Shown here: piece after piece, positions 3,956 to 62,244 of the stretch
How positions within the stretch are numbered: position 1 is the first letter of the stretch
Layout: each line of letters opens with the position of its first letter
Origin: Trypanosoma brucei
Lineage: Eukaryota
Reading direction: 5' to 3'
DNA length: 64,000 nucleotides
Assembly: GCA_000002445.1 (NCBI GenBank)
Contig: CM000208.1
Span: 2,848,001-2,912,000, forward strand
The notes under the pieces: model-generated
Seen by the model: the letters and a program-made list of their open reading frames with translations, nothing else
Told to the model about the DNA's origin: nothing
Databases searched by the model: none
Made by a program: the position numbers and the translations under genes

Positions 3956-4013
3956 TAGAACATAATTCCGTTAGACAACCGATAATTTGTAGTTACTTTC
4001 ATTTGTGGTTCTG

Positions 4014-4766
4014 ATGTTAACTATCCGTGTCGGTAACCTACCAGTTTGCCTTTGCTCAAACTTGCGCAACACGTTCAACCCGACTTATGCCTTCGGGGTT
4101 AAGAGGAATGACGGCACGGTGGCACTTCTCGACGGGAAAAGTGGCCACCTACTGCTCCCATTTGATGCGGAGGGGAACATTATCGTCACTCCTGGGGCGG
4201 ATTACCAACTTGTTTTCTTGTCCAACGATTCAACTTCATCCACTGTTCACACAACGCAGGGCCTGGGAAAAGGAGGCACAAACAAAACTAGTCATGATTT
4301 CGAGCTTACAAAGGCCCTTGCAAAGGATGGTTCAATTCACCGGGAGAAGAGGCGTTTAGACGATGGGCGAGCCACCAGTCGTGAGAGGTTTCACAAGGGA
4401 AATGCACACTACTCAGTGAGTGATTCTAAACCCACGAAGAGGCGTAAAAGAGATCATTCCGTAGACAAGGATGCAGTTGTCGAGGCCGAATTCGGTTCTC
4501 AATCGATTAATAAAAAGGAGAGGAGTGTTAAGGCATCTCGTAAAGACTCTAACAGGGAAGATTCTGACGATCCCGATGATATTCCGATATTCTGCACGTT
4601 AGCCGGAAAGCCAACTCCCGCACCCATTTCATCAAATCACACCCCAACAGTTTCTCCCGCTCCGAAGGAAGTTTACCTCGTTGATAATTTTGATCCCACC
4701 ACGAGACCGGCACATTCTGAGGAAGGGGCTCTCGATAGTTCCGCGACGGAGCTCATTTCTTCATAG
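4014..4766 (+). CDS. Hypothetical protein with a basic Lys/Arg/Ser-rich C-terminal half (possible nuclear protein)
   Basis: The track ORF 4005..4766 begins with GTG; the first ATG is 9 nt downstream (MLTIRVGNLP...). The C-terminal half carries runs such as KRRKRDHSVDKD and KKERSVKASRKDSNRED. No named domain was recognised. Confidence 0.45.
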   Translation: MLTIRVGNLPVCLCSNLRNTFNPTYAFGVKRNDGTVALLDGKSGHLLLPFDAEGNIIVTPGADYQLVFLSNDSTSSTVHTTQGLGKGGTNKTSHDFELTKALAKDGSIHREKRRLDDGRATSRERFHKGNAHYSVSDSKPTKRRKRDHSVDKDAVVEAEFGSQSINKKERSVKASRKDSNREDSDDPDDIPIFCTLAGKPTPAPISSNHTPTVSPAPKEVYLVDNFDPTTRPAHSEEGALDSSATELISS

Positions 4767-5588
4767 ACAAAAAAAAAAAGACCCGCCTCTCAAGCCAAAC
4801 GGTTGTGTTGGTTTTATTTTGTAAGTTGTGGTTGTCATAGTTGGGATATTGCGTTTTCAGGCGAGGTGGGTGATAAAGAAAAGGGGGAGATTTTGTAATT
4901 TCAAATAAAGTTTCGAGAGCGTTACGGGTGGTTAACATAGAAAGAAAAAAGAGGAGAGAATGAATGCACTACTAAAAAGAATCAGAAGTAAAAGAGCTAA
5001 AGCGCAAATGATAAAAGTCGCCCGTGTACAATCTGTTTTTTTTTTCCAAACGCAGAGGTGGAATATGGTAAGAGGATTTTTCTTTCCTTTTTTTTTTTCG
5101 TCTCGCGACTGCGACAACGGATCGATAATAAGATATGCGGAACTAGCAGTAGAGAAGGCAAATGTCGGAAGAAAAGTGAGAGTGTAAACAAAAAAAGAGG
5201 GCTTTTAAAAAAAAAGATAAAAATATAATAAACAAGGAAATGTAAAAAAAAAAAGAAAAAAACAAACAGAGGGAACAAAAGTGAACCTAAAGAAAAATTG
5301 AAAGGGAAATGTGACATTTTACAAGTTCCGAGTTCTGCATAGCAACAAATGCTCAAACTCCCTTCGGCATGCGCTCAAACATTCACGAATCGTTGTTACG
5401 TTTTTGCTGGCTTTCTCCCGTCGCTTTTTCATTTTGTTTAGTTATATTGTTGGTATTTCTTTTTTTTTTCTATAGCTATTTAGACTTTCTTATTATTGCG
5501 CGTTAGAAAGTTTTTTTTTTCCACCACCCAGACACATCTTTCGCTTTTCTTTTTCTTTTATTTATTTTACACCTTTTCATCAGATACG

Positions 5589-5612
5589 TATATATATATA
5601 TATATATATATA
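5589..5612. repeat. (TA)12 microsatellite
   Basis: Read directly from the sequence. Confidence 0.9.
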
Positions 5613-6128
5613 GTTCCCCGTTAATTTTCTTTTTCTTTTTTTGTTATTCGAAATAGTTATATGATAATGTGATATGCTTAAAATAAAAGAAAAAAAGTAG
5701 ATCCACAAATTTAAAATTTAATTTAACTATGATTGTCGTTTTTATCTTGTGTTGATAAAAACGGGGTCGGATGGTGTTTGCGTTTTTGTATATGCCGAAT
5801 AAAACTGCAGAATATATTTATATAAAATATTTATAGTAACAAATTAGCGACTTTTCATCTCACTTCCTCCGATTCTGTTCGCTTTTTTTCGCTGTCTCGT
5901 TATTTATTTACTCATTTACTTTTTTTTTCCTCTCTCCCCTCCCTCCCCTACCCCCTTTCGTATAAAAATATAAATATATTTATAAATGTGTTAGTCTCTG
6001 CGTTTCCTTTTATTACTTTCTCTGTTTTATTTTTCATCTTTCGATGTTTTGGCGTGCAGCTGTAGGTTTTGTGTTTTTTTTATTATCATTAAACTTAATC
6101 ACTATTCTTATTTTTGTATTTTCTTTTA

Positions 6129-6152
6129 ATATATATATATATATATATATAT
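6129..6152. repeat. (AT)12 microsatellite
   Basis: Read directly from the sequence. Confidence 0.9.
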
Positions 6153-8398
6153 GTTTTAGTTACTAGTGGCTTGCTTTTCTACGTTTCTTTTTGTTTTTTT
6201 TATTTATGAGTCGGGGCGAAGGAAGCGGTGCCTTTCCTTCATTTTACCTCTGAGTTATTAATTTTTTCCCCCCATTTTCCCCCTGCTCTCCGCCTGCCAT
6301 CAGGATCTGGTTTATTATTTTAATTTTCAGCACCATCATCACCGCTATTCCCTTCTTTTTTCTTTTTTTCCTTTTTTCTTTTGACATTTTGTCATATTTT
6401 TGTTGTTTTTGTTGTTTTTGTTGTTAAAAATATGATTTGGCTTTCATGTGTGTCGGCTTCGGTTTCGTAATGAATGCATTACAACATAACCTTCTTATTG
6501 CTTTTCATGCTGGCGTTTGTTTCATTTTGTTTCTTTTTTTTTATTTTTCCTGCGTCGACCTCAATATCCAACCGTCATGTTGCACCTGAGTGGTGGATGA
6601 GGAACAGGACGGTAACAAACAGATAAAAAATAAAAATTAAAATCAACTTCAAAACTTTGTTGAGTTCCCGTTGATGTTTATAAAAATGAATGATGATGAT
6701 GATAATAATAATAATGATAACAAATGCTGTCGCTCTTGTTGTTAATATAACCATTTTTGTTATTGTTAAATTGTTAAGAGGTCAACGATGAGGCAGTGGA
6801 TGATTTTTATTCATATGAACAAATTAAGTTGTTAAAAGTGGCGCCAATGGAAAGTGATTTGAAGGTGTGAAGTAAAGAAAAAGAGAAACAACAGCGGTAA
6901 TAAATACCATTTTTTTCTTTTAAAAAAAGAAAAAAAAAGGTACATACGACATCTGAAAAGGGGGAAGGCATAATCATGATATCAGTAATAATATTAATAT
7001 TACCAACAAGGCAAGAGGCAGGGAAACAAAGGGAGAGAAGGGAGAGGAGAAACATACAAAAGGAAAAAAAAGATAATAATAATAATAACAATAACAATCA
7101 CAATAATAATAATTATTATGTGATGTCTCCTCTTCCTCCTCCGCATTCTCCTTAAATGACACAACCCCTTTATAAAAGGGGGAAAAGAAAGAAAAGAAGA
7201 ATGGTAATTGTGTTTATGTATGTGTGTTTATGAGTTGGAGGGAGGGAGGGGAAAGCGGTATATCAAATGAATAAAATGACAAACCGAAACCGAGCCAAAA
7301 CGAAAGAGGAACGTAAAAAAAAAAGGAGGAGAAATGACAGTAAAGATATGGAGTGTAATAAAACTGAATAGAATGAAACAGAGAGCAAGGAAAAAGAAAA
7401 GGAAAGGAAAAAAGACAGATTGGTAAGGACGACATTTGTTTTGAGGAGCGGCAGTGGGAAATAGCGTGAAAAAGAGAAAAAGAAAAAAAGAAAAGGGAGC
7501 GAGGCGAGTGTTGAAGTGAAATACTGTGGGGTATTTTTGGACACCACGAATGAAACAAAAAGATATGTACACTCAAACATGAAAAAAAAAAGACAAATAC
7601 ATTAAATATGAGGAATACAGAATAGAAGAGATGAATAGAAGATGCGTACCCGGGTGCTCATGACTGGTACGACATTTACATGTTTTGTTTTGTCTTTTTT
7701 AAAATAAATAAATAAATATATATATATTCATGTGGTTGGAATGTATATGGAGTGATGTGGAGGTGTAGTGGTAGTTATGCAGATGGCGAATGCTCACTCG
7801 CAGCAACTGTAATTTGTCTTATGTTTTTACTTTGTTCCTCTTTCATCCTTTTAATTTTTTGGCGAATTCAAGAAGGTGAGGGCGAAGGGAAACAAACAGC
7901 AGGAAATGGGGTGAATTTTGTTGAAAGAAAAAAAAAGTGAATAAAAAGAAGGTAGTGATGCTTACCACTATATATCAGGTTCTTTGCGTCTGATTCAATA
8001 GAAGAAACGGAGAGAAAATTGTGTACAATGTATAATTGCTTTGCATTTTTTATACGCACGCGTGATAACTTGTAGTGCCTCCCCCCTATTCTCTTTTTTT
8101 CCTTTACAAACACAACTCTCTGAACTTAAAAGGGGAAGAGTAGAGACGGAAGCGAGTGCGGAGGCGGATGGTTTTAACATCTAAATACCGTTACTCATAT
8201 TACTTGTGTGAAAGACTTCGCTTTTTTTTTTTTTGTAAAAAATATTTCTCCACCTGAGTTGTAAGTCCATGATGGAACAACGCGTGAGGTGAAAGGAACA
8301 GAGAGGAAGAAAGATAGAGTGGCGGAAACGGACGGTCTTATGATTGTTTCTTTTCCGACGAGTCTTTCACATTAATTCAATCAAATATGCATAACTGA

Positions 8399-8534: not shown

Positions 8535-9776
8535 ATGAACCGTAGTTCGAGGAACCTTGCAGAGATGCAGGATGAGATCAACCAGTTGGACGACCGTTAC
8601 AAACTTGAAAAGATAATTGGTGCGGGATCCTATGGTGTCGTCATCCGCGCGAGGGATACCACAACAAACGACCTAGTGGCCATTAAACGCGTCAATAAGG
8701 AAATATTCGAGGAAATAATCCTTGCAAAACGTATTCTTCGCGAAATCAAGCTGTTGGCACACTTTCACCACGATAATATCATTGGACTCCGTAACCTCAT
8801 CACCCCGGCCGACCGCGACAACTATGATTACTTTTATATTGTCATGGATGTAATGGAGACCGACCTGAAGCAAGTGCTCCGAACTGGCCAAAGTCTCACG
8901 GAAGGTCACATACAATATTTCATTTATCAAATCTTACATGCCCTAAACTTCATCCATTCTTCAGGTGTTATTCATCGAGACATCACCCCGGCCAACATTT
9001 TAGTCAATAAAAATTGTGATTTGAAGATATGCGACTTCGGACTTTCCAAAGAGGAGAGTGATCAAGGGGAGCACATGACAGATTATGTTACCATGCGTTG
9101 GTACCGTGCACCGGAGCTGGTGATGGAAGATAAGAGGTATTCCGCACAAATTGATGTGTGGGGAGTTGGAAGTATTCTTGGTGAGTTGCTGGGCGCCCGA
9201 CCCCTGTTTCAGGGAAAAGACCGTGTGAACCAACTGGACAAAATCATTGATGTTATCGGAACTCCATCTGAAGAGGATATAAATTCCATCGGGTCCACTG
9301 CGGCGCAGAAGTATTTAAAAAAGAAGTCATTTCGTCCTGCACCCGATTGGGCCTCCGTATATCCCAGAGCGAGTCCAGAGGCGCTGGACTTATTGCGGCG
9401 GATGTTGGTGTTCCATCCAGACAAGCGCATAACTGTCGCTGAAGCATTAAAACATCCCTTCCTTAGGGATCTGTACGAGGAATCCGATGTACAGGTTAGT
9501 ATCCAGCACTTTAACTTTGATGAAACACAACATAAAACAATTCAGGAGGTAAAGTGGGCGGTGTATGATGAGAGTGTGGCATTTCACAAAAACCACCCCC
9601 GGACAGCACCTAGGCCACAACAACAACAACATTCTGCGCAACAACCCGCCGCTGCTGCATCTCTTCCAACTGTTGATATCGCTGGAGAGTGGCGGTCAGC
9701 GCAACAAACAATTGAGCGGGGCGAGGAGGAATGTGGTGCGGAGCAGTTCGACAAATATGTGGGTTCCGTTGAGTGA
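8535..9776 (+). CDS. Mitogen-activated protein kinase (TDY activation-loop type) with a Gln-rich C-terminal extension
   Basis: 413 aa. Gly-loop GAGSYGVV; VAIK-like VAIKRV; catalytic loop HRDITPANIL; DFG motif; activation-loop T-D-Y in HMTDYVTMRWYRAPE; MAPK-typical GTPSEEDI segment and a CD-domain-like C-terminal region. Confidence 0.9.
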   Translation: MNRSSRNLAEMQDEINQLDDRYKLEKIIGAGSYGVVIRARDTTTNDLVAIKRVNKEIFEEIILAKRILREIKLLAHFHHDNIIGLRNLITPADRDNYDYFYIVMDVMETDLKQVLRTGQSLTEGHIQYFIYQILHALNFIHSSGVIHRDITPANILVNKNCDLKICDFGLSKEESDQGEHMTDYVTMRWYRAPELVMEDKRYSAQIDVWGVGSILGELLGARPLFQGKDRVNQLDKIIDVIGTPSEEDINSIGSTAAQKYLKKKSFRPAPDWASVYPRASPEALDLLRRMLVFHPDKRITVAEALKHPFLRDLYEESDVQVSIQHFNFDETQHKTIQEVKWAVYDESVAFHKNHPRTAPRPQQQQHSAQQPAAAASLPTVDIAGEWRSAQQTIERGEEECGAEQFDKYVGSVE

Positions 9777-9906: not shown

Positions 9907-10655
9907 AAGCTGCAAGAGTGGGTATAAGCACGTGCATGTATGCGTTTGTACGTTTTTTTAAAATTTCGTTTTGTCTCAGGGAAGAGCAGCTTTAATGGGA
10001 TTTCCTCGGCCTGCTTAGCTGATGCTGCGGCGGCCGTATTACGTGAAGGGATGCTAGAAATATGATATAATACGAAGGCCGAGAGGTATATATTGCGTGC
10101 GATGGAATAAAGTGAAGAGAAAGTTGTTGGAGGTGACGGTGCAAAAATTCAAAGCTATCAAATAAAGACTCATCGGGTAAATGGGAAATAAAAACTTAAA
10201 CGAAGAGAAACAAAAGAAAAAAGGGTGGAGGGGAACGTAAATAAGAAACAGATAAGCAGCAACTGACAAAAATATGAAGGTAGGGGTGGTGCGAAAAGAA
10301 AGGAAAAATTTGCCCGTGTGTGTGTGTATGTGTTTAAAGGAACGGGGGTCAAAAGTAAAATAAATCGAATGAATAATTGGGGGAAAAAAGGAAAGGAGAG
10401 GTTAAATGAAACAAAAGGAAGGAAATATGAGCATATGGCTACAAGTATATGATTCTGTCGGTGGAATGAGATGGTTAAGAGGAGTAGAGGAAATAGGGAT
10501 TCTACGGAAAAGTGAGTTGATGGAACGTATGGTAAAGGACTGCGGTGGGTTTCGTATGGTTTTACTTATGAAAAGAAAGTCATTTTACCCTCCTCCTGCT
10601 GTCCCCGACTTGTGTTTGTTGGTTTTGTTTTGTTTTGTTTTGCTCCGATATTTCA

Positions 10656-10685
10656 TTCCCTTCCCTTCCCTTCCCTTCCCTTCCC
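10656..10685. repeat. (TTCCC)6 pentanucleotide repeat
   Basis: ttcccttcccttcccttcccttcccttccc read directly. Confidence 0.9.
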
Positions 10686-12196
10686 CTCCTAATCTATACG
10701 AATTTAGAGGGTGAGCGTTCGGTGTTTGAGGACGTCATGCCACTCACGGATGAATTCTCATGCTCATTTCTTGTGTGTGCGTGGGAAAAGGGCAGGGTAA
10801 AGGAGGAATTACTTATTTATTGTATTATTTTTTTTTAAAAAAGGAGAGGAATAGGAAATGGGAAGGTGTGCAGTGAATGGCTCAAGGTGATGAGATAGAA
10901 TATGATGGTTACCGTGGGTGCTTTTTTTTTTTGTTGATTCGTTGGTTGGTTGTTTGATTTATATGTTTCTATACTTATATGTGTGTGCTTGTAGCACCTT
11001 CATATTCTGACGTTACATACGCATATTTGATATTTCTTCTTATATTTACTTACATATGTATAGTCCTAAAAATTCTTTAAGCAGCGCCAGCAACAAAAAG
11101 AATGCTTGACTTCCATCACACATTTTTTCTTTCTTTTTTTCTTTTTTTTTTTCTGTTTATGCTTCCATCATTTTTACCATTTTCCCCGTTCCTCAATTGT
11201 CGCCGACATTATTATGGTTCCTTTTCATTCTTTTCCCATGTTTGTTTACATTCCCCTTCTCTGGGTTAAGGAATGCTTGGCGCGTGTATTTCAAATAAAC
11301 AGCATGAAGCTACTTGCCTTCCGTGACTGCCTAGCGTTCTTCCGTCGCTTCGTTTTGTTTGTGTTTTTTTTTCTTTTTTCCTTCTAGGTATTTAATTTCT
11401 TTTTTCCTTCTTATCTTCCATTCGGTATTTTACATGTTGGTGTTATTATGACGAGGCTTGCTTAGGTATGTTGCTCCCGTTGCGTTGTGGTGCTCCTTTT
11501 TTTTTTTTTACTTTTTGGTCACTTTTAATTCCTACGTGGCTCTCTGTGCGGACGTGGTGTACAACCTTTCCTACACGTACAAATATACAAATATGCGCAC
11601 ACTTACATACGCGGGTACGTATATACGTACATCTACATATGTATTGGTTTTGTGTTCAAATTAACATGTGTCGTTGCTACCATCGCTCTTTTTTTTCTTT
11701 GTTATTAATATTAATATTGATATTAATATTATTTATATTGCTGGGAATAGCATTACTATTTTTCTTTCTTTCGTTAACTATCTCCCCCCTTTCCGAATTC
11801 GTTTCTTCTTTTTTAAAAAAATTCTTTACCACCCAACCCAATTTCTTTATTTTTCCACCGTCGCACAGTTGGAATGAATGAATATCGGAGACAATTGAGG
11901 GTAAAGAGAAACTCAAAAGGAAAAGAGAAAGAGGGATAAAGGAAATGACGGGAACAAAAACAAAAAATAAAATGAAAACTAGAATTACATTTCTCCTCAT
12001 CTTCCTTCCCTCCCTCCCATATATACACACATATGCACACACTTCTGATATCGAAACGGGGAAAATGAAGGGGAAAAATAACAGTCACATGATTGGATGG
12101 GTGTGTAGTCGACGGTGGGTGCGGGACCCCTCCGGAAACTGCGAATTGTGGAAAGAGAATCGGGTGCCAAACGTCGGCAATATTTTGCAGCACTTC

Positions 12197-36821: not shown

Positions 36822-39221
36822 TTGAACAACTTCATTGCTGTCCATAGTTTGCTGTCACGTCGATTAAGGATGTCTGCGACATCCCCGAGAAATATATATG
36901 CACCGCTCAAAGTTGAGTTCGACAGCGAGGTTGAAATCACAATTCACAGCGCCTTCTTACAAACGGCACGTTTGCTTCAATGTGACCCGATGGCGCACGT
37001 AAGCGTCTCTACGCTTCATGTGGCAACGGACACACGTCGACCGTGCGGGGGTGTTACTCAAGTTGGAGAGAGTACTAGAATAGTTAAAAACGAGCGTCCC
37101 GTTGGTTCAACGAGGCGGCTGCACTTCACCTCAAAGCCAAACTTCAGTGAAATCATACGGTTTGTGATACCTTTCACACAGTGCCGTCGGTCGACTATGA
37201 GACCAGAATCGCGGCTGCTGCTTCGTAAAACCGCTGCGGCAGTATCTACGGATGACAATCCTGATGAGCGGTTTGTTGATCATCAAGTATTGATAACAAT
37301 TACCGACGCACAAGAACAGGGATACGGTCAGGCCGTGTGTCCGTTTCTTTTGCACGTCCCTAGCAGCTCCACGGAGCCACAACGCATCATGCTACAGCCA
37401 CGCAACAAACACGACAAGCACGACCCCGTATTCAAATCTGATGTGGCTCTGCTTGCTAAGCACGGCGTTGACGATTTTGGTTTCGTGGATATATCGTGGC
37501 GAGTCAGTCTGATCCCGCACGGTGGTGCCCTTATCACTGCGTTGCAACCATCGGTAAGCGTACCTACATTTCCCATAGGACTCGTGCTGCGGGCAACGTG
37601 GCTCGTAGCTGGTAACGTCCACCAACCTCGCACACAGTACACGACGTCTGTGGAGTTTGGCGGGCAAGACCGTTTTTTGTTTGAAGGGACAAAACCGCTT
37701 TTTCTTACAATTCAAAGCGCTGCGCAGCTTGAGCGAGCCATCGTTCATTGCACTTTCCACGACACAACGACTCGTCCCCAGTCGTATGATGTGGCTGTAC
37801 CACTGCCTGTTCCCCCGATGGCCTCTTTTGCCATGGAGCGCGATGTATGGTGGACAACTCCCGTGCGAACCGCATGTGGTGTTGACTTAGGCATTCTTCT
37901 GGCATCTATACGTCTTGCACAACGACCTCTTGATGGCAGTACACCATTCTGTACCGTTGAGGGTTGTAGGGAAATTAACAACCCCATTCACCAGTCGCAG
38001 TTTGCACATGTGGCAAAGGAGTGGGGACGCGCACCACCCAATACACCGCCTGGTGCCTACTACCCATTGTTTTGGGAATCTGAGCAGCATATTGCTCGCG
38101 TGGCGGAGCGGCAGTGGCGCCATGATTGCATTGTTGGGGCACGTCCCTCTATAGAGCATGTGCGGCACCTCCTGGAGGTCCTTGCGGGTCGCATTGCCGT
38201 CGATGGCGGCGTGAATGGGGTTGCGGCAGTATACTTCAACCATGCACCGACTACAACACTACAGCAACACCAGGTAAAGCAGTTTCTTGTAACGTGTGCT
38301 TTCCACGCAAAGGAGATGACAGTGCAAGATGCAGCCCGGTTTTGCTTCTTTGCCCTTCGTCGCGACATGGAGCAGGCCATAACGAAGGAAGACGTCGTCT
38401 TCATTCTAGATCACGCACTTATCGGGAAAACAATTGATATGCCTGAGAAAGAAGTATCCCGTCGCGTTGACGACATCTTTGGCGATGGTGTGTACATCAC
38501 CTTTGACGACTTCATGCGTTATTTCATTAACAACTATGCCATGTGGTACCAGTTTGGTGTACCCATTACGACAGGTGATGAACAGGCGGCACAGGGCAGC
38601 ATGGATGTGGCCGTGGAACTCGGACCAAATGCTCAAGGGACGGCGAAGGAGGAATCTGGTGAGGAAGCTCGTGGTGGTGCCGCAGTGCCTGTCGCGCCTC
38701 GTGGAGAGGAGGCCGGGTCATCGAACTCTAATCCTCAAGATGTTGGCGTTTGGCGCAGATTTATAGCACGTGTTCAGCATAGTAACAGGGCATTTAGCGT
38801 AACAGCGCACGTGAACGACTCCATTGCAGAGGTGATGGTGATGGTGCAGAATAGTACTGGAATCCGCGCGTCCTGTCAGGAGTGGAGGATGAATGGTGTT
38901 TTGTTGGATCCAAAGGCTACGGTAGGAAGCACAAAGTTGGGGCTTAGCTCGCGGAATGATGCGTCACCGGAGGTCGTCATTATTGAACGTGATGAATCCT
39001 TGCGTCTTGTTATGTTGTACAAGGAGAAGTCAGTCCGTTGGGAGCTACGCATTCAAGAAACAGAAAAGGTGCTGCGACTCAGAGCACTGGTTCAGCAAAA
39101 AACATTGATACCCCTCTCACGTTGTGTTATGCGGGCGAATGGCCAACGCCTTCAGGACAGGCACCCACTTCAACACTATCAACTTCAAAATGGCGATGTC
39201 GTCGAGGTAATGCAAGAGTAA
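36822..39221 (+). CDS. Hypothetical protein with two C-terminal ubiquitin-like (beta-grasp) domains; the probable true start is the downstream ATG near 36870
   Basis: 799-aa ORF. The C-terminal segments FSVTAHVNDSIAEVMVMVQNSTGIRASCQEWRMNGVLLDPKATVG and RLVMLYKEKSVRWELRIQETEKVLRLRALVQQKTLIPLSRCVMRANGQRLQDRHPLQHYQLQNGDVVEV each follow the ubiquitin pattern (L..G..L.D...L..Y.I.NGD.V). An EF-hand-like stretch DDIFGDGVYITFDDFMRYF is also present. Confidence 0.65.
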   Translation: MNNFIAVHSLLSRRLRMSATSPRNIYAPLKVEFDSEVEITIHSAFLQTARLLQCDPMAHVSVSTLHVATDTRRPCGGVTQVGESTRIVKNERPVGSTRRLHFTSKPNFSEIIRFVIPFTQCRRSTMRPESRLLLRKTAAAVSTDDNPDERFVDHQVLITITDAQEQGYGQAVCPFLLHVPSSSTEPQRIMLQPRNKHDKHDPVFKSDVALLAKHGVDDFGFVDISWRVSLIPHGGALITALQPSVSVPTFPIGLVLRATWLVAGNVHQPRTQYTTSVEFGGQDRFLFEGTKPLFLTIQSAAQLERAIVHCTFHDTTTRPQSYDVAVPLPVPPMASFAMERDVWWTTPVRTACGVDLGILLASIRLAQRPLDGSTPFCTVEGCREINNPIHQSQFAHVAKEWGRAPPNTPPGAYYPLFWESEQHIARVAERQWRHDCIVGARPSIEHVRHLLEVLAGRIAVDGGVNGVAAVYFNHAPTTTLQQHQVKQFLVTCAFHAKEMTVQDAARFCFFALRRDMEQAITKEDVVFILDHALIGKTIDMPEKEVSRRVDDIFGDGVYITFDDFMRYFINNYAMWYQFGVPITTGDEQAAQGSMDVAVELGPNAQGTAKEESGEEARGGAAVPVAPRGEEAGSSNSNPQDVGVWRRFIARVQHSNRAFSVTAHVNDSIAEVMVMVQNSTGIRASCQEWRMNGVLLDPKATVGSTKLGLSSRNDASPEVVIIERDESLRLVMLYKEKSVRWELRIQETEKVLRLRALVQQKTLIPLSRCVMRANGQRLQDRHPLQHYQLQNGDVVEVMQE

Positions 39222-47192: not shown

Positions 47193-49301
47193 ATGGGAAG
47201 AAATAAGTCCCATGCGCCGTACCTTGGGGTATTAGAAGATGGCCTCAACACATTACAGCGCATACAACAGTGGGGAGCTGCCGCAGAGCTGTTATACACC
47301 CCGAACAGCCTTGTGAGCAGCCCACAGAGCTCGAACGAACCGCACGCATTAACTGTGGCCCGTCAAATCGCTACCATCATGGCGCGACTGAATGAATTGT
47401 GTAGACGTGAAGCAGAGGTGCTCCTAACGCCCCGATTGGCTCTTCTAGAACTGGCGGACGTTATCCGTCACGGTCTTGTCTCCTTTCACCAAGAGGGTTT
47501 TAATGGCCAATTAGGCAATGCCGAGGTGCTGGCCAAGTACGTCGCCCATCGTACAGCTCCGCAGTGTGGCGTAATAGAAGGGTTACATGTTATCACATGG
47601 GTGAGCGTGAAACTACGCATAGAGTTGTTTATTGAGCAACTACGCAAACGGGTTGATGGGGAACTTGCAGCAGCGGAGGGTGGGGGCAGCCGCACTGAGC
47701 AGCAACTGTCTGCATTGCGCACCACACAGCTGCTGTTCAATGACTTTGAATCACTTTACGACAATCTCCTTGTTACTTTTCCGTGCGTTCAGTATGCGGA
47801 CACAATCCCTGAGGTGGGTGCGCAGCTGATGCCAATCCTCTTGAAACAATACTATCAAATTGCAGAGTGGGTGGAGCTGGTAGAGTCCAACAACGCGCTC
47901 CCTCCCTTAACCGAGACGAGAGTGCAGTCCGTTGACGCGGAATCTTCATCCTTCGTGGTACGCCGTCAAAACCCAGAGGCACCTTTGGGTCTCGTCTTCA
48001 ATGAATGTGGCCGCATAGTTGAAATAGATCCTTCCGTCCGCAGTGCATCGGCATCTGGGGAAGAGCTGCATCGGCTCCTGCGGTGCAGCGAAAAGGGGGC
48101 AGTGGTAGTCGCAGTCAATGGAAAACCAATACCGCGCTCCCCACCGAGCAAACCATCAAAGGTGCTGGAAATGGTTCACGATGCCGTGAAGAAGAACAAG
48201 CGGGTTGTCGTGAAAGTGGCCAAGGAGCTATTTAAACAACCAAAAGTTCATCAGTTAGCGTTTATAATGCCAAACCAGGGAGGTGAAGGCTCTTCCGGCC
48301 AGCGCGCCACACTAGTGCTTCACCGTAGTGACCGGCTCACTCCTTGGGGTTGCCAATTTGATCAAGACTTAATTATAAACAAGATCCCCAGGCGGGAATT
48401 ATCCGAGGATGCTAAGAATTTCTTCACAGAGTACAGTGACCGAGTGAGCATCACGGCTGTGAACGGTGTTGAAGTGACGACGGTGGCTCAGGCGCAAGCG
48501 CTTTGCTCTGACACAGAGACTGCGGTATTAAGCCTTGTGGTCGTTACACCTGCAATGGCCCAGCAGCGAAAGAACCGCACCACGAGACAGGACACGTCGG
48601 TAACCTTGACCCCACAACAGATTGAACAGCTTCAAGAGACGCCGCTAGTTCCTGAACAGAAAACTCTACCTCCTCTGAATCAAGCCCCGGCGGAATTGTT
48701 GGAAAGCGACAGTGTCGTTGATGGCAATCTCGATGCAGCTCTGCTCTCAACCTCTATGGAAGACACCGGTGAGGTGGAGGATGTAACCCATGAACCCCAT
48801 TCACAGGTGGAGGAAGTGGACATGAACACGTATCAGCGCGTGGCAATTGATGTACACCACGGGGAAGATTTGGAACAGGAAGAGCGGCAGAAACAACAGC
48901 ACCTGGAGAGTGAAAGGCATCTCGAACCATCAGGCTTAGAAGGGTCAACGGATGCAGATGCTCCAGGTCCACTCGTTTTTCCCAACGATGTTGCCATCGA
49001 TCTGCTTACTCCGTCAGAGATGGTAATCCGGCGGCCATCCACAGAAGATAGATGGGGTCTCGTGCTTAACAAAATTGGAACAAGCTCAGGGGATGCACTG
49101 CGTGTCTTACAGCTTCCGGAGCTCCCGCCAAAGGGCGACACTAGGCGAAAGCATCCGTTTTACAAGACGTTCAAAAATCCATCCGTACCGACGGAGTGGC
49201 GCATCGAGAGCGTCAACAACACGCCAGTTTCAAAGGCAGCAGACATACTTGAAATAATGCGAAAATCTCTCAAGCTGAGTATTAAGTTTTTCAAGCTTTG
49301 A
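47193..49301 (+). CDS. Hypothetical protein with possible PDZ-like segments
   Basis: 702-aa ATG ORF with complex composition. GLVFNECGRIVEIDPS...AVVVAVNGKPI and WGLVLNKIGTSSGDALRVLQL...WRIESVNNTPV resemble PDZ beta-strand patterns; this is a low-confidence domain guess. Confidence 0.6.
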   Translation: MGRNKSHAPYLGVLEDGLNTLQRIQQWGAAAELLYTPNSLVSSPQSSNEPHALTVARQIATIMARLNELCRREAEVLLTPRLALLELADVIRHGLVSFHQEGFNGQLGNAEVLAKYVAHRTAPQCGVIEGLHVITWVSVKLRIELFIEQLRKRVDGELAAAEGGGSRTEQQLSALRTTQLLFNDFESLYDNLLVTFPCVQYADTIPEVGAQLMPILLKQYYQIAEWVELVESNNALPPLTETRVQSVDAESSSFVVRRQNPEAPLGLVFNECGRIVEIDPSVRSASASGEELHRLLRCSEKGAVVVAVNGKPIPRSPPSKPSKVLEMVHDAVKKNKRVVVKVAKELFKQPKVHQLAFIMPNQGGEGSSGQRATLVLHRSDRLTPWGCQFDQDLIINKIPRRELSEDAKNFFTEYSDRVSITAVNGVEVTTVAQAQALCSDTETAVLSLVVVTPAMAQQRKNRTTRQDTSVTLTPQQIEQLQETPLVPEQKTLPPLNQAPAELLESDSVVDGNLDAALLSTSMEDTGEVEDVTHEPHSQVEEVDMNTYQRVAIDVHHGEDLEQEERQKQQHLESERHLEPSGLEGSTDADAPGPLVFPNDVAIDLLTPSEMVIRRPSTEDRWGLVLNKIGTSSGDALRVLQLPELPPKGDTRRKHPFYKTFKNPSVPTEWRIESVNNTPVSKAADILEIMRKSLKLSIKFFKL

Positions 49302-58194: not shown

Positions 58195-60573
58195 ATGGGG
58201 TCACCAACCCCAAACGTGCGAAGAGCGATGATTGCAGTGAGCCGGCGGCTGAAGCTTCGTCGACCACCGCGCACGCCCTCCGCAGGGGCAGTAGCAAGGG
58301 GAAGTTGCATAGAACAAACCTCCTCACATTTTGTAACGGCTGCTGTTGAGAGGCTCCACAGCCAAGTTGCACCCGTAACGCCCACACATGCTTCGCACAT
58401 GGACTCTCACAAGAGGGATCTACCGTGTCTGCTGCGCACGTTCCTCGACCAGGGGCACGCACCGCAGTTATCTTCGTCTGTTGTTTCATGTGCTGTCTCC
58501 TCCAAGCAGATTATTGGAAAAACCGCCAAATCAGCAGGGTTGGCTCGGAATGATGCAGAGGATATGCTAATGCAGTATCGACCGAAGATTGATTCCGCGT
58601 TGGTGCGGCGCGTCGCTTGTGCCATGGACGTGGAAGGGGCGTTACGGCGAGCCAGGAAATTGACGCAAGCGCTTCGCGAAGGTGGGGAGCTTGACAAAAT
58701 GCTCTCAAGTTGTGTATCGGTTTCCTCGCAGGTCACAAAGCAGGAGATGGAGCTGCAAGCGGGAATAGCGGCGCGGTTTCATCAGCAGGCCCGGGCCAAG
58801 CGGCAGATGAAACTACGCGGGTTTCGGCTGTCCACTAGTGACATTCAGGTGTCAGAAGTGCTTCCTGATGGGAATATAGTCACTTTTACAAATCCGACGC
58901 TTCCAAGTGCTGCGGGCACGTGCAGCAGGAAGTCTTCTTTGGACGGCAAACAGTTACCATACCTTTACTTTGTACTTTACAAAGAAAATATTTCGCTTGG
59001 AGACGCATTCAGGCTCTTGAGCGAAGTATCCGAAGGGATGTGCCGTCTCGAAGACTTCGCGGTGAATGTGGCACTCGAAGAGTCTGCTGTCACTGCGCAA
59101 CTCTGCAGCGTGCGCATTGCCCTGCTTAATGATGAAACCCACGGAATACGGCGATCAGCCGCGGTGAAGAAACTTCTCAGAGTGAACTTGCGACCCTTAC
59201 GACTTAGTGTTCAGCTAATCGGTTGGAGAGACCGCCCGTGCGAACCTGCCTCTAGCGGCATGTCCCAAGCCCAATACAGCATGCTTATTAGGGGAATCAG
59301 CGCGAATGAGCCAACTCACTTGGAGAGAAAGGTGCTGGCCAGATTCACGGCGTTTCCGAACTTCTTTGGGCCACGCCACTTCGGGCCATTTTGTTTGTTT
59401 CGCACTTACCACGCAGCTGCCGCGTGGGAACGGGGTATGCATGCGGAGGCACTCGTTATAGGAGCCTGCTTGAGTTATGCCGACAGCATTACATCGGGGA
59501 GTGGTTGGATAGGCAAATTGGTGGAAATTCTCCGTCAAGGCGAGGATCGCCTTGGCGTACTGAAAGAGTGGTACCAGTTTAACGTTCCCCACAGGCTGAG
59601 GGCGCAGATTGCTTCAAGTAAAGCTGCCCTGGTATGGAATGTGCTTGCAAGCTGCCGTATTCTTGAGTTGGGGGCGTGCACCATGGAAAGGTCCCCTGAC
59701 GTTGGGGATTTTGTGGTGGATGGAGGTCGTTGCCCTGCCCAAGTTGAGGAAACTGTAGAGAAGGTGGAACTCTTTCCAGAGTGTGGTTGCGGAAAGTGGA
59801 ATAGCCCCCCGTCCGTGGAGCGAAAGGGTAGGGATTGCGCAAATACTGAGGTTGTGAAATTCATCTCCACTCAAGAGGACGCTGCCCCGTACACGATACA
59901 TAATATTGTTGTACCGTTGGGCGCGGAAACTAATGGGGAGGTAAGAGGTCTGTTAATGCAACTGGGCTTCCGTCCCACCTTACATCCGGTTGAGCACTCG
60001 CAGAAACCGGTTGGTCACCGCCCACTCTTTGCAACGGGTAGTGGGTATCCGCGTGCAGCTTCTCCGTGGGTAAAGGCTCTGCCTGAGCTAACTGGAGGCA
60101 TTGCTGGGGACAACGGAGGTGTTTTTAGGCTGCTCACAGATGTAGAAATGCGCCAAAGCAGCAGCTACACAGCCCTGTCGAGAGGCCGGATGCGTGGAAT
60201 TTGGCCAGTGGGAAAGTATGGCTACCGGTTGACGGATCGCTTGCCCGCTGGAATCGTCTCTCTTGCCGCGTCGGACGCGACGTGGCGCGGAACCAGATGT
60301 CTTGCCATGCACTTCACCTTGCCAACACAAGTGTATAGCATGTCCCTCTTCCGAGAGTTCGTAGACATTGAGGACCTTACCGAAGTGACGGATCGCGTAT
60401 CTTCGGCAGGCGATAACAGGAAGGTGGAAGGATCACCTCCTGTAAGGGTGAATACAGCGTCAGTGGAAGGTAAGGGAATGGCAAGCGACCCTGGTCAGGG
60501 ATTTGTGGACGGCGATTTGATGGGTTTGAAGCGCAGAGTATCGGATGCGGGTGCAACAAATGCCGGTAAATAA
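58195..60573 (+). CDS. TruD/Pus7-family pseudouridine-synthase-like protein; the true start is probably a downstream Met
   Basis: 792-aa ORF. SDIQVSEVLPDGN parallels TruD EDFVVVEDLGFEPDGEG; LYFVLYKENISLGDAFRLL parallels ILVRILKNGCNTRFVADAL; FPNFFGPRHFG matches the family signature GVPNYFGAQRFG. Comparisons are from memory of the E. coli TruD sequence. Confidence 0.65.
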   Translation: MGSPTPNVRRAMIAVSRRLKLRRPPRTPSAGAVARGSCIEQTSSHFVTAAVERLHSQVAPVTPTHASHMDSHKRDLPCLLRTFLDQGHAPQLSSSVVSCAVSSKQIIGKTAKSAGLARNDAEDMLMQYRPKIDSALVRRVACAMDVEGALRRARKLTQALREGGELDKMLSSCVSVSSQVTKQEMELQAGIAARFHQQARAKRQMKLRGFRLSTSDIQVSEVLPDGNIVTFTNPTLPSAAGTCSRKSSLDGKQLPYLYFVLYKENISLGDAFRLLSEVSEGMCRLEDFAVNVALEESAVTAQLCSVRIALLNDETHGIRRSAAVKKLLRVNLRPLRLSVQLIGWRDRPCEPASSGMSQAQYSMLIRGISANEPTHLERKVLARFTAFPNFFGPRHFGPFCLFRTYHAAAAWERGMHAEALVIGACLSYADSITSGSGWIGKLVEILRQGEDRLGVLKEWYQFNVPHRLRAQIASSKAALVWNVLASCRILELGACTMERSPDVGDFVVDGGRCPAQVEETVEKVELFPECGCGKWNSPPSVERKGRDCANTEVVKFISTQEDAAPYTIHNIVVPLGAETNGEVRGLLMQLGFRPTLHPVEHSQKPVGHRPLFATGSGYPRAASPWVKALPELTGGIAGDNGGVFRLLTDVEMRQSSSYTALSRGRMRGIWPVGKYGYRLTDRLPAGIVSLAASDATWRGTRCLAMHFTLPTQVYSMSLFREFVDIEDLTEVTDRVSSAGDNRKVEGSPPVRVNTASVEGKGMASDPGQGFVDGDLMGLKRRVSDAGATNAGK

Positions 60574-60816: not shown

Positions 60817-62244
60817 ATGTCGGTGGATTGGAATACCGTTCACCAAACAGTGTCGGACCACTGGGACACTTCTGTCGTTCCCGGTCTTTCAGAGTTTCTT
60901 GAGGTTCCAAACCAAAGCCCACACTATGATAAAGAGTGGGCGACGAATGGCCACATGAAGAAGGCGATGGACGTCGTGGTTAAATGGATAGAGAAGCAAC
61001 CGATCAAGGGAATGAAGTACGAAGTATTCGAGGATGAAGGCCTAACACCCTTCCTTGTCGTTGAGATCGAGGGGACAGAGCCATGCGCAAACACGCTGCT
61101 AATGTACGGGCACGTGGACAAGCAACCTCCACTCCTTCCCTGGGGTGAAGGCCTTCACCCCTACAAACCCGTGTATCGTGACGGCAACTTGTACGGTCGT
61201 GGATCCGCTGACGACGGTTATGCAGCCTATTTGGCAATCAGCGCCGTGGCGGCCGTTCAGAAACATGGGCTTCAACATGGCAAAGTTGTCGTCATCATTG
61301 AGGCGAGTGAAGAGTCGGGGAGCATGGACTTGCCCCATTACCTGCGCAGGTGCAAAGATCACATTGGAAATGTCGACCTCCTCATCTGCCTTGACAGTGG
61401 TGGTGCCAACCACGAGCAACTGTGGCTGACGACAGCGCTGCGAGGTCTCTGCGGGGGCGTGCTGACGGTTGAGACCATGAGGGAAGGTATGCACAGCGGT
61501 ATGTCTGGTGGCGTGGTCCCCGATTCGTTTCGTATCGCACGCATGCTTCTGGAGCGCATTGAGGATACAAATACGGGCAATGTGAAGATACCTGAGGCGA
61601 TCTGTGACATCCCCGAACATGTCATCAAGGCCGCGGAAGTAATGAGGTCCATACCACTGAAAAAGATGTTCGCTCTCCTTCCCGGCGTTGCAGCGGAAGC
61701 GGATGACAACGCGGAGCTTGCCCTGAGGAGTTCATGGAAGGCAGCCCTCACTGTGGTAGGCGACAACCTTCCGGACACCGCAACAGCCGGTAACGTCAAC
61801 CGTGCCAAAACCACTTTGCGCCTCTCTCTCCGAATCCCGCCAGTTGCGGATGCTGAGAAGGTCAGTGCGGCCATGAAGAGTATACTTGAGGCTGATCCCC
61901 CTTACAATGCAAAGGTCAATTACACCTCACATCACGACGGCACCGGCAGCGCCACCCCGGCCTTAAAACCGTGGCTTGCCCAAGCGCTCCACAGCGGTTG
62001 TGAAACTGCCTTCGGTAAGACTTATGCTTCGCAGGGTGTTGGTGGAACCATCCCCTTTGTCGCGATGCTGCAGCAAATGTTCCCCGAGGCGCAATTCCTC
62101 ATCACAGGGGTCGTGGGACCGAGGAGCAACATCCATGGACCGAATGAGTGTCTAAACGTGCCATTTGCAAAGGGTGTCACCACTTGTGTTGCGCGCGTGA
62201 TTGCTGAACACTTTCACGCAACGCCAAAGTTGCGAAAGGATTAG
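60817..62244 (+). CDS. Peptidase M20 family metallopeptidase (CNDP/Dug1-like dipeptidase)
   Basis: 475 aa. His motif MYGHVDKQP; GRGSADDGY (the metal-bridging Asp region); catalytic IIEASEESGS (EE); C-terminal IHGPNE. Confidence 0.85.
   Translation: MSVDWNTVHQTVSDHWDTSVVPGLSEFLEVPNQSPHYDKEWATNGHMKKAMDVVVKWIEKQPIKGMKYEVFEDEGLTPFLVVEIEGTEPCANTLLMYGHVDKQPPLLPWGEGLHPYKPVYRDGNLYGRGSADDGYAAYLAISAVAAVQKHGLQHGKVVVIIEASEESGSMDLPHYLRRCKDHIGNVDLLICLDSGGANHEQLWLTTALRGLCGGVLTVETMREGMHSGMSGGVVPDSFRIARMLLERIEDTNTGNVKIPEAICDIPEHVIKAAEVMRSIPLKKMFALLPGVAAEADDNAELALRSSWKAALTVVGDNLPDTATAGNVNRAKTTLRLSLRIPPVADAEKVSAAMKSILEADPPYNAKVNYTSHHDGTGSATPALKPWLAQALHSGCETAFGKTYASQGVGGTIPFVAMLQQMFPEAQFLITGVVGPRSNIHGPNECLNVPFAKGVTTCVARVIAEHFHATPKLRKD

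What the first reader, a model, noticed from the sequence alone, without database searches (positions are those of the whole stretch)
58195..60573. TruD/Pus7-like protein in which the catalytic Asp motif appears replaced (candidate pseudo-pseudouridine synthase)
Three segments align convincingly with bacterial TruD: the N-terminal EDFxVxE..PDG block, the NTRFVADAL block, and the family signature PNYFGxQRFG (here FPNFFGPRHFG). At the position corresponding to TruD FAGQKDKHAVTEQ, which carries the catalytic Asp, this protein reads FAVNVALEESAVTAQ. The flanking FA and AVT.Q are conserved, but the GxKD core is gone. A TruD-fold protein that lacks the nucleophile would be a pseudoenzyme, possibly an RNA-binding or guide factor, or it may use a different catalytic residue.
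Basis: partly seen in the sequence, partly recalled or inferred. Interest (0 to 1): 0.6.

Follow-up and report, generated by a model that had tools for sequence, protein, structure and literature searches.

The report
Divergent trypanosome PUS7 paralog, Asp→Glu
This Trypanosoma brucei gene (almost certainly Tb927.10.12250) encodes an uncharacterised, probably mitochondrial relative of the RNA-modifying enzyme PUS7/TruD in which the universally conserved catalytic aspartate is replaced by a glutamate in a rewritten but strongly conserved loop, so it is most likely a non-catalytic RNA-binding paralog and less likely an unusual glutamate-using enzyme.

Summary
The ORF (58195-60573, +, 792 aa) is real and is a TruD/PUS7-fold protein: hhalign to canonical PUS7 gives 99.8 %, E 8e-29, and the 12 best Foldseek PDB hits for a pLDDT-86 model are all TruD family. 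Pfam does not detect it from the single sequence. But four independent alignments place an invariant glutamate (E295, VALEES) on the catalytic Asp, so a carboxylate is still there. Early-branching kinetoplastid homologs (Bodo, prokinetoplastids) keep Asp at this column, and Glu is derived in trypanosomatids. The NxF motif, the FxVxE glutamate and a basic partner (K to R211) are kept, while the loop charge flips (KDKR to LEES). This loop is the most conserved segment of the protein within Trypanosoma. Exact primer matches identify the flanking genes as Tb927.10.12040 and Tb927.10.12260, so this gene is Tb927.10.12250. It is neither the "PUS7" Tb927.10.9050 nor the assembly factor mt-LAF4. Mitochondrial targeting is predicted only. 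Best reading: a third kinetoplastid TruD-family paralog, probably a pseudoenzyme that still binds RNA or a nucleotide in its cleft. A Glu-dependent synthase is not excluded. Inactive pseudouridine-synthase paralogs are already known (mt-LAF3/4, RPUSD3), so interest is moderate.

The parts
58195..60573 (+). Complete ORF, 792 aa, 86.5 kDa, pI 9.4. Identical to XP_823430.1 / UniProt Q389B8 ('hypothetical protein, conserved' / 'TRUD domain-containing protein'). Inferred gene ID Tb927.10.12250.
   Evidence: Gene ID from exact primer matches to the flanking genes Tb927.10.12040 and Tb927.10.12260 plus the numbering step of 10.
58195..58311 (+). aa 1-39: Arg-rich N-terminus without acidic residues (net +9), a predicted mitochondrial presequence. 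The motif M..AMAAVSRRMRVRR is conserved in Trypanosoma orthologs.
   Evidence: MitoFates-positive and in the mitochondrial reference set of PMC5436138 Suppl. Data 2. This is prediction only.
58312..58782 (+). aa 40-196: clade-specific N-terminal extension with no recognisable domain. It is conserved from about aa 130 (RVA..DI.GAL..AR.L..A.R.GG).
   Evidence: It lies outside the hhalign match.
58783..60432 (+). aa 197-746: TruD/PUS7-like catalytic plus TRUD domains. It lacks the eukaryotic PUS7 insertion domain ID-I.
   Evidence: hhalign 99.8 %, E 7.7e-29. AF2 pLDDT 86.4, pTM 0.89. Foldseek top 12 PDB hits are all TruD family.
58825..58872 (+). aa 211-226, RLSTSDIQVSEVLPDG: N-terminal active-site motif. 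R211 corresponds to yeast Pus7 K61 / E. coli TruD K21, I217 to F67, and E221 to E71.
   Evidence: Residue roles come from PMC8794802 and PMC3973310.
59056..59100 (+). aa 288-302, FAVNVALEESAVTAQ: the catalytic-loop equivalent. V292-A293-L294-E295-E296-S297 replaces G-T-K-D-K-R, so E295 (codon GAA) sits at the position of the catalytic Asp.
   Evidence: The overlapping window 291-305 is the most conserved 15-aa window in Trypanosoma; 288-302 itself ranks 2 of 778. In the model it is a loop between two strands with pLDDT 95-96.
59353..59385 (+). aa 387-397, FPNFFGPRHFG: motif II. N389 and F391 (the NxF motif, yeast N305/F307) are retained, while Q-R is replaced by R394-H395.
   Evidence: N389 is invariant in all 59 aligned sequences.
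60157..60300 (+). aa 655-702: basic insertion (net +6, rich in R/K/Y/W/G) that canonical PUS7 lacks and that is highly conserved in Trypanosoma (SYTA.SRG....WP.GKYG.RL..RLPAG). It is a candidate extra RNA- or partner-binding surface.
   Evidence: (unaligned stretch in hhalign).

Best explanation
The gene encodes a kinetoplastid-specific, highly diverged paralog of the pseudouridine synthase PUS7/TruD. It is probably imported into the mitochondrion. It keeps the V-shaped TruD fold and the nucleotide-binding pocket but has very likely lost efficient pseudouridine synthesis. I propose that it binds a mitochondrial RNA, holds a flipped-out nucleotide or a single-stranded segment in the conserved cleft (N389, F391, E221, R211, E295), and acts without turnover as an RNA chaperone, stabiliser or assembly factor, much like the other non-catalytic pseudouridine-synthase paralogs of kinetoplastid and human mitochondria. 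Shown here: the fold, the homology, the residue mapping, the conservation pattern, and that this gene is neither mt-LAF4 nor Tb927.10.9050. Inferred: mitochondrial location, RNA binding, and loss of catalysis.
For: Fold and homology. The catalytic motif is altered at six consecutive positions (GTKDKR to VALEES) with the charge inverted from +2 to -2, and motif II QR becomes RH. The canonical residues at these positions are invariant or nearly so in the 19 canonical PUS7 proteins. Every known pseudouridine synthase family uses Asp (PMC8794802, PMC3973310), and even conservative changes to the catalytic network are costly (TruB R181K is 2500-fold slower). From memory only, TruA D60E is inactive. 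Precedent in the same organism and compartment: mt-LAF4, a TruD-like protein with non-conserved active-site residues, acts as a placeholder in the pre-mtLSU; mt-LAF3 does not need its Asp for function; human RPUSD3 lacks the Asp. The NxF, E71-equivalent and basic-partner residues are kept, and the cleft motifs are the most conserved parts of the protein, which argues that the cleft still binds something. The protein is basic (pI 9.4) and has a conserved basic insertion. A presequence-like N-terminus is conserved, and the gene is MitoFates-positive and listed in a mitochondrial reference set.
Against: There is no experimental evidence for localisation, RNA binding or lack of activity. The gene is not marked in the experimental mitochondrial proteome, mitoribosome, editing or MRB1 columns of the reference table, and it was not found in the held TrypTag supplements. 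It matches no chain of any solved T. brucei complex. A carboxylate is conserved at the nucleophile position across the clade, as Asp or Glu wherever the loop aligns unambiguously, and the loop is under the strongest constraint of the whole protein. A purely scaffolding role does not require that, whereas retained catalysis would. I could not inspect model coordinates, so the geometry of E295 relative to R211, N389 and F391 is untested.
Confidence: 0.55

Rival explanations
1. It is still an active pseudouridine synthase that uses Glu295 as the catalytic carboxylate. The loop was remodelled (VALEES), and the K to R change at the basic partner (R211) re-positions a longer acid/base pair. In the early-branching kinetoplastid homologs the same enzyme still uses Asp.
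For: E295 aligns exactly to the catalytic Asp by four methods. That column is D or E in essentially all clade members whose loop aligns unambiguously, and never a non-acidic residue there. Asp is retained in Bodo and the prokinetoplastids. The residues with the largest kinetic effects after the Asp in yeast Pus7 (N305, F307) are strictly conserved, along with the E71 equivalent and a basic residue at the K61 position. The loop is the most conserved window of the protein in Trypanosoma. The residues flanking the Asp differ between pseudouridine synthase families anyway (HRLD in RluA), so GxK may not be indispensable.
Against: No natural or engineered Glu-dependent pseudouridine synthase is known to me, and none turned up in the library. 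Conservative substitutions in the Asp/Arg network of TruB cost 30- to 2500-fold. The charge inversion of the loop and the loss of the motif II Q-R pair and of the HAYQS His and Gln, all invariant in canonical PUS7, point to a changed function. The F67 equivalent is aliphatic. The basic partner is not conserved throughout the clade: it is absent in Bodo and shifted by one position in Leishmaniinae.
Confidence: 0.25
2. It is a protein-binding placeholder or scaffold like mt-LAF4. The TruD fold would be used only as a structural module in a mitochondrial (or other) assembly, with no RNA or nucleotide in the cleft.
For: L. major mt-LAF4 'does not contact rRNA' and blocks binding of central-protuberance proteins. 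Structurally the model matches T. brucei mt-LAF4 about as well as PUS7 (E 3.5e-16 vs 1.3e-17). The acidic loop could dock a basic protein segment. Large clade-specific extensions (aa 40-196, 655-702, 747-792) could be interaction modules.
Against: Unlike mt-LAF4, whose catalytic-loop half is not recognised by the canonical PUS7 profile (the match starts at profile position 269), this protein aligns through the loop in register and keeps NxF, E71 and the basic partner. Conservation peaks on the cleft motifs rather than on surface insertions. It is absent from all solved T. brucei mitoribosome assembly intermediates.
Confidence: 0.15
3. It is simply the canonical T. brucei PUS7 (Tb927.10.9050), or mt-LAF4, seen through a poor alignment.
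For: UniProt labels it 'TRUD domain-containing'. Automatic KEGG labels on the prokinetoplastid relatives say truD/PUS7.
Against: Published primers for Tb927.10.12040 and Tb927.10.12260 match the window exactly on either side of the gene, so its ID is about 12250, not 9050. T. brucei mt-LAF4 is a 616-aa PDB chain (6yxx_ED and others), and the 792-aa query does not match it by phmmer. No ortholog has GxKD.
Confidence: 0.02

Closest known systems
Eukaryotic PUS7 (yeast Pus7 7MZV, human PUS7 5KKP) / bacterial-archaeal TruD
   Same: Same fold: PUS catalytic domain plus TRUD insertion domain. Collinear motifs FxVxE, LYKE, the loop ...A.T.Q, NxFG..xFG, WN, GDxV, YR and FxLP...Y....RE. The NxF motif and the E71 equivalent are retained.
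   Different: GTKDKR becomes VALEES (catalytic Asp to Glu, net charge +2 to -2). Motif II QR becomes RH. HAYQS becomes SSKAA. F67 becomes Ile/Val and K61 becomes Arg. There is no ID-I insertion domain. It has a predicted mitochondrial presequence, a 150-aa N-terminal extension and a basic 48-aa insertion. It is not detected by Pfam PF01142.
mt-LAF4, the TruD-like assembly factor of the kinetoplastid mitoribosomal large subunit (6YXX/6YXY/7AOI chain ED/XC; 7AM2 chain CA)
   Same: A kinetoplastid TruD-family paralog with a non-canonical active site. It is mitochondrial (for our protein this is only predicted). Structural similarity to our model is comparable to that of PUS7. It sets the precedent for a non-catalytic role.
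   Different: It is a different gene: 616 aa vs 792 aa, with no pairwise sequence match and profile E 4.5. Motif II of mt-LAF4 is NYFWLDRFS (T. brucei) or NYFGLESFG (L. major), and its catalytic-loop half is not recognised by the canonical profile. Ours keeps the loop in register with a carboxylate. Ours has not been seen in any assembly-intermediate structure.
mt-LAF3 / PUS5 (Tb927.9.3350, RluA family) and human RPUSD3
   Same: Mitochondrial pseudouridine-synthase paralogs that function without catalysis. mt-LAF3 D211A complements fully, and RPUSD3 has Gly in place of the Asp.
   Different: They belong to a different pseudouridine synthase family (RluA). mt-LAF3 keeps the Asp, and RPUSD3 has a non-acidic residue. 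Neither shows an Asp to Glu swap within a strongly conserved loop.
Tb927.10.9050, the T. brucei 'PUS7' ortholog named by Rajan et al. 2021 and the mt-LAF3 preprint
   Same: TruD family, same chromosome.
   Different: It is a different locus, about 320 gene numbers away. I could not retrieve its sequence, so I do not know whether it is canonical or whether it is the same protein as mt-LAF4.

Membership tests
TruD/PUS7 pseudouridine synthase superfamily (fold and homology) | Significant profile-level sequence homology across the catalytic and TRUD domains | tested here: met
   hhalign 99.8 %, E 7.7e-29, 464 columns. Bridge sequences P0037 and P0069 are hit by the ortholog profile and hit human PUS7 at about 1e-17. 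Note that single-sequence Pfam gives no hit.
TruD/PUS7 pseudouridine synthase superfamily (fold and homology) | TruD fold (V-shaped PUS plus TRUD domains) | tested here: met
   AF2 model with pLDDT 86.4 and pTM 0.89. The top 12 Foldseek PDB hits are all TruD family, E 1e-17 to 1.6e-7, and the next hit is at E 0.03.
Catalytically competent TruD/PUS7 enzymes | Catalytic Asp within the GxKD motif (motif I) | tested here: not met
   The column holds Glu (E295). G becomes V and K becomes L. This is invariant in 10 Trypanosoma species.
Catalytically competent TruD/PUS7 enzymes | NxF of motif II (yeast N305/F307), which stacks on and positions the target uridine | tested here: met
   N389 and F391. 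N is invariant in all 59 aligned sequences, and F/Y is present throughout.
Catalytically competent TruD/PUS7 enzymes | Q-R of the NYFGxQRFG signature | tested here: not met
   R394-H395 in T. brucei. The Q is lost in the whole clade, and R is kept in only some members.
Catalytically competent TruD/PUS7 enzymes | Basic partner of the Asp (E. coli K21 / yeast K61) and the Glu of FxVxE (yeast E71) | tested here: met
   R211 sits at the same offset (-5 from the motif Asp) and is invariant in Trypanosoma. E221 is invariant clade-wide. The change is Lys to Arg, and the basic residue is not universal across the clade.
Catalytically competent TruD/PUS7 enzymes | Pseudouridine formation on RNA | not testable with these tools
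   This needs a biochemical assay or Psi mapping in a mutant.
Non-catalytic pseudouridine-synthase paralogs acting in mitochondrial RNA/ribosome biogenesis (mt-LAF4, mt-LAF3, RPUSD3 type) | Pseudouridine synthase fold with a non-canonical catalytic centre | tested here: met
Non-catalytic pseudouridine-synthase paralogs acting in mitochondrial RNA/ribosome biogenesis (mt-LAF4, mt-LAF3, RPUSD3 type) | Mitochondrial localisation | tested here: inconclusive
   The N-terminus is presequence-like. The gene is MitoFates-positive and has a TriTrypDB 'mitochondri' annotation, but it carries no mark in the experimental proteome columns. It was not found in the held TrypTag supplements.
Non-catalytic pseudouridine-synthase paralogs acting in mitochondrial RNA/ribosome biogenesis (mt-LAF4, mt-LAF3, RPUSD3 type) | Physical presence in a mitoribosome assembly intermediate or RNA-processing complex | tested here: not met
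   The exact T. brucei sequence matches no PDB chain, although T. brucei pre-mtLSU structures including mt-LAF4 are in the same database. Absence from solved states does not exclude transient association.

The most novel reading that the evidence does not exclude
Tb927.10.12250 and its trypanosomatid orthologs are the first natural pseudouridine synthases, or RNA isomerases/modifiers of related chemistry, that use a glutamate instead of the otherwise universal aspartate. The loop (VNxxL[ED][DE]) and the basic partner (Lys to Arg) would have co-evolved to accommodate the longer side chain, and the enzyme would act on a mitochondrial RNA target specific to kinetoplastids.
Probability: 0.2. Interest if true: 0.8.

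Novelty: new variant of a known kind. Interest (0 to 1): 0.45.

Why it matters
All six pseudouridine synthase families are described as using one invariant Asp. A lineage in which that residue changed to Glu, while the loop and pocket stayed under the strongest purifying selection in the protein, is a useful natural test of how strict that requirement is. In practical terms, this adds a third, uncharacterised TruD-family protein to the kinetoplastid set, alongside mt-LAF4 and the 'PUS7' Tb927.10.9050. It is a candidate new player in the unusually factor-rich mitochondrial RNA and ribosome biogenesis of trypanosomes. Because Asp-type homologs (Bodo, prokinetoplastids) and Glu-type orthologs (Trypanosoma, Phytomonas) both exist, the catalytic question can be tested directly by swapping residues. 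If it is only one more dead paralog, it extends an already known theme and is of specialist interest.

Tried and rejected
1. Single-sequence Pfam and PDB searches found nothing, so profiles were required. 2. The first AF2 run, with 10 close orthologs, was unusable (pLDDT 34). Only the 59-sequence alignment worked. 3. The word-indexed homolog search with the clade profile added almost nothing. 4. Gene-ID attempts through Tb927.10.9050, the ribulose-phosphate epimerase, an exact-sequence contig look-up and 'TruD'+'Tb927.10.1' text searches all failed. The ID was finally fixed by exact matches of published primers for the flanking genes. 5. Identity with mt-LAF4 or with Tb927.10.9050 was rejected. 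6. Strict co-variation of the basic partner (K/R) with the D/E state was not found. 7. The truncated T. b. equiperdum copy (two 1-bp deletions) looked like pseudogenisation in a possibly dyskinetoplastic strain. However, a neighbouring unrelated gene also carries a 1-bp deletion, and the substitution density is within the neighbours' range, so assembly error cannot be excluded (P about 0.05). I treat this as inconclusive. 8. A literature search for Asp to Glu mutants of pseudouridine synthases found nothing in the held library, so the TruA D60E result is cited from memory only. 9. Model coordinates are not exposed, so I could make no geometric check of the E295/R211/N389/F391 pocket. 10. The MAFFT column for the N-terminal motif was misaligned for canonical sequences, so I used the hhalign register and a motif-anchored regex instead.
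Full report
**1. What is there**

The window is Trypanosoma brucei TREU927 chromosome 10. The 792-aa ORF at 58195-60573 (+) is 100 % identical to XP_823430.1 / UniProt Q389B8. NCBI annotates it 'hypothetical protein, conserved' and UniRef 'TRUD domain-containing protein'. All large ORFs in the window lie on the + strand, as expected for one polycistronic unit.

Published primers for Tb927.10.12040 (MAPK11; PMC6283605) match the window exactly at 8756-8774 (+) and 9754-9773 (-). The published C-terminal tagging primer for Tb927.10.12260 ('cytosolic nonspecific dipeptidase', 1428 bp; PMC9184580 supplement) matches exactly at 62212-62241, the end of the 1428-bp M20 peptidase ORF at 60817-62244. 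Our ORF ends 244 bp upstream of that gene, so it is almost certainly Tb927.10.12250. The last step is an inference from the numbering. No paper in the held library mentions that ID in its main text.

**2. Is it TruD/PUS7-like?**

Yes, but this is visible only at profile or structure level.

- The single sequence gets no Pfam hit and only E 0.014 against one NCBIfam TruD model. It has no PDB hit.
- A profile of 10 Trypanosoma orthologs (A1) hits human PUS7 weakly but collinearly.
- An exhaustive search of 1.8 billion representatives with A1 returns 60 proteins. They range from kinetoplastid orthologs to canonical PUS7 proteins carrying GTKD[KR]RA.T.Q and NY[FY]GxQRFG.
- Bridge sequences (P0037 from the prokinetoplastid Apiculatamorpha, and P0069) are hit by the profile and themselves hit human PUS7 at about 1e-17.
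- hhalign of A1 against 19 canonical PUS7 proteins gives 99.8 % probability, E 7.7e-29, 464 aligned columns, T. brucei residues 197-746.
- With a 59-sequence alignment, AlphaFold2 gives pLDDT 86.4 and pTM 0.89 for residues 192-748. The 12 best Foldseek matches in the PDB are all TruD-family chains: yeast and human PUS7, T. brucei and L. major mt-LAF4, and archaeal and E. coli TruD, at E 1e-17 to 1.6e-7. The next match is at E 0.03.

**3. The catalytic loop**

Against eukaryotic PUS7 the loop is the same length. Four methods give the same register: hmmsearch, MAFFT L-INS-i, hhalign, and hmmalign to an HMM built only from canonical PUS7. In that register V292-A293-L294-E295-E296-S297 lies opposite G-T-K-D-K-R.

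So the G, K and D of GxKD are indeed replaced, but the catalytic Asp is replaced by a glutamate, not by a non-acidic residue. Codon 295 is GAA. Glu is invariant in all 10 Trypanosoma species.

Across the wider clade the column is Asp or Glu wherever the loop aligns unambiguously. The only other entries are P/A in Leishmaniinae-type sequences, whose loop is two residues longer but still carries acidic residues. Taxon names put Asp in the early-branching lineages: Bodo saltans has LDD, Apiculatamorpha FDA and Papus IDS. Glu is found in Trypanosoma and Phytomonas. A rough NJ tree orders the states as KDK (canonical), then xDx, then LDD, then LED/LEE. Glu is therefore derived, and the Gly and Lys were lost earlier.

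**4. The rest of the active site**

Yeast Pus7 mutagenesis defines K61, F67, E71, D256, N305 and F307 as the conserved pocket. N305A and F307A cost up to 5e4-fold (PMC8794802). The basic partner of the Asp in E. coli TruD is K21 (PMC3973310). These residues map as follows:

| Yeast Pus7 | T. brucei | Conservation |
|---|---|---|
| K61 | R211 | Same offset from the SDx motif; invariant in Trypanosoma; R also in the bridge group; shifted by one in Leishmaniinae and Phytomonas; absent in Bodo |
| F67 | I217 | Ile/Val in most orthologs |
| E71 | E221 | Invariant clade-wide |
| D256 | E295 | See section 3 |
| N305 | N389 | Invariant in all 59 aligned sequences |
| F307 | F391 | F/Y throughout |

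Other changes: motif II Q-R becomes R-H, HAYQS becomes SSKAA, and the PUS7 insertion domain ID-I is absent. The loop's net charge changes from +2 (KDKR) to -2 (LEES).

**5. Constraint**

Within Trypanosoma, the window 291-305 (NVALEESAVTAQLCS) is the most conserved 15-residue window of the entire protein. The window 288-302 ranks 2 of 778. Across the 28-sequence clade the loop is in the top 10 %. The other top-ranked windows are the classical cleft motifs SDxQVxE, LYKE, PNFFG..xFG and WNxxAS. Purifying selection is therefore focused on the cleft, including its rewritten loop. This argues against a freely decaying active site and for a cleft that still binds something.

**6. Cellular context**

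The N-terminus of the Trypanosoma orthologs has 6-9 Arg/Lys and 0-1 acidic residues in the first 40 positions. Tb927.10.12250 is in the mitochondrial reference set of the ImportOmics study, but only through a TriTrypDB annotation and a MitoFates prediction. It has no mark in the experimental proteome, mitoribosome, editing or MRB1 columns. It was not found in the held TrypTag supplements. Mitochondrial localisation is thus predicted, not shown. The mature protein is basic (pI 9.4, against about 6 for most canonical PUS7 proteins sampled). It carries a conserved basic insertion at 655-702 (+6) that canonical PUS7 lacks.

**7. Relation to known trypanosome proteins**

- The T. brucei 'PUS7' of the literature is Tb927.10.9050, which is a different locus.
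- mt-LAF4 is a TruD-like protein of 616 aa. It acts as a placeholder for the central protuberance in the pre-mtLSU and is considered inactive. Our sequence does not match it pairwise, and the profile E-value to the L. major chain is 4.5.
- The canonical PUS7 profile recognises mt-LAF4 only from position 269 onward, so it misses the catalytic-loop half. Our protein aligns through the loop. Ours is therefore a further TruD-family paralog whose pocket is less degraded than that of mt-LAF4.
- Non-catalytic pseudouridine-synthase paralogs are an established theme. mt-LAF3 D211A complements fully, and human RPUSD3 lacks the Asp.

**8. Interpretation**

- Most likely (about 0.55): a pseudoenzyme that keeps the nucleotide/RNA-binding cleft and works as a mitochondrial RNA-binding, chaperone or assembly factor.
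- Live alternative (about 0.25): a pseudouridine synthase that uses Glu. It is supported by the conserved carboxylate, the retained NxF/Glu/basic residues and the extreme conservation of the loop. Against it stand the absence of any known Glu-dependent pseudouridine synthase, the cost of even conservative changes in the TruB catalytic network, and my recollection, not verified in the library, that TruA D60E is inactive.
- Less likely (about 0.15): a pure protein-binding scaffold like mt-LAF4, because conservation peaks in the cleft.

**9. A side lead that did not hold**

A T. b. equiperdum assembly (GCA_003543875.1) has two 1-bp deletions in this gene, at codons 353 and 564, plus 15 nonsynonymous and 8 synonymous differences. 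If real, and if that strain lacks functional kDNA, this would support a role limited to mitochondrial gene expression. However, a neighbouring unrelated gene in the same assembly also has a 1-bp coding deletion, and the substitution density of our gene is within the neighbours' range. Assembly error cannot be excluded. T. equiperdum OVI has an intact copy.

**10. Verdict**

The claim that the catalytic Asp motif is replaced needs refining to 'Asp to Glu within a rewritten, highly conserved loop'. The protein is an uncharacterised kinetoplastid-wide PUS7 paralog. It is a new variant of the known class of divergent, probably non-catalytic pseudouridine-synthase paralogs, with a modest chance of being a real exception to the universal Asp rule.

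Noticed in passing
window 8535-9776 (+): A MAP kinase with a TDY activation loop. Published tagging primers match it exactly, which identifies it as Tb927.10.12040 (MAPK11), a melarsoprol-susceptibility hit in RIT-seq screens (PMC6283605).
   Followed up: yes
window 60817-62244 (+): An M20-family peptidase ORF of exactly 1428 bp. It is Tb927.10.12260, 'cytosolic nonspecific dipeptidase', one of the peptidases released by bloodstream trypanosomes (PMC9184580). The published primer matches at 62212-62241.
   Followed up: yes
L001/L002 (T. b. equiperdum GCA_003543875.1, CM010681.1:2941441-2962706), corresponding to window 59251 and 59885: The ortholog in this assembly carries two 1-bp deletions (codons 353 and 564), which split the gene into 421-aa and 205-aa calls, plus 15 nonsynonymous and 8 synonymous differences. 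A neighbouring gene (the window's 702-aa ORF, at position 48793) also has a 1-bp deletion, so this is either real pseudogenisation or long-read assembly error.
   Followed up: partly
window 1-64000: All 18 ORFs of at least 250 aa are on the + strand and cumulative GC skew rises monotonically, which fits a single polycistronic transcription unit. In the T. b. equiperdum locus, genes switch to the - strand about 5 kb beyond the M20 peptidase (L002 17381 onward), so a convergent strand-switch region probably lies just beyond the window's 3' end.
   Followed up: no
window 47193-49301 (+): A 702-aa protein with three Pfam domains of unknown function (DUF7761, DUF7762, DUF7759) and an embedded PDZ-like match. 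I did not look into its function.
   Followed up: no
window 36822-39221 (+): A 799-aa ORF (TTG start as listed, so the real start is probably a downstream ATG) with a C-terminal ubiquitin-family domain (aa 739-798) and no other recognisable domain.
   Followed up: no
window 4001-8000 and 10001-12000: Markedly AT-rich stretches (GC 0.33-0.39, against about 0.47-0.53 elsewhere) flank the MAPK11 gene. They are probably long UTR or intergenic regions. I did not examine them.
   Followed up: no
window 58195-60573; Tb aa 655-702: A 48-aa basic, Gly/Tyr/Trp/Arg-rich insertion (SYTA.SRG....WP.GKYG.RL..RLPAG) is nearly invariant in Trypanosoma and has no counterpart in canonical PUS7. It may be the clade's own RNA- or partner-binding element.
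   Followed up: partly
PMC5436138 Suppl. Data 2: Several other 'hypothetical protein, conserved' genes from this chromosomal neighbourhood (Tb927.10.12050.12080.12300) are also listed in the mitochondrial reference set. The first two should lie inside this window, downstream of MAPK11.
   Followed up: no
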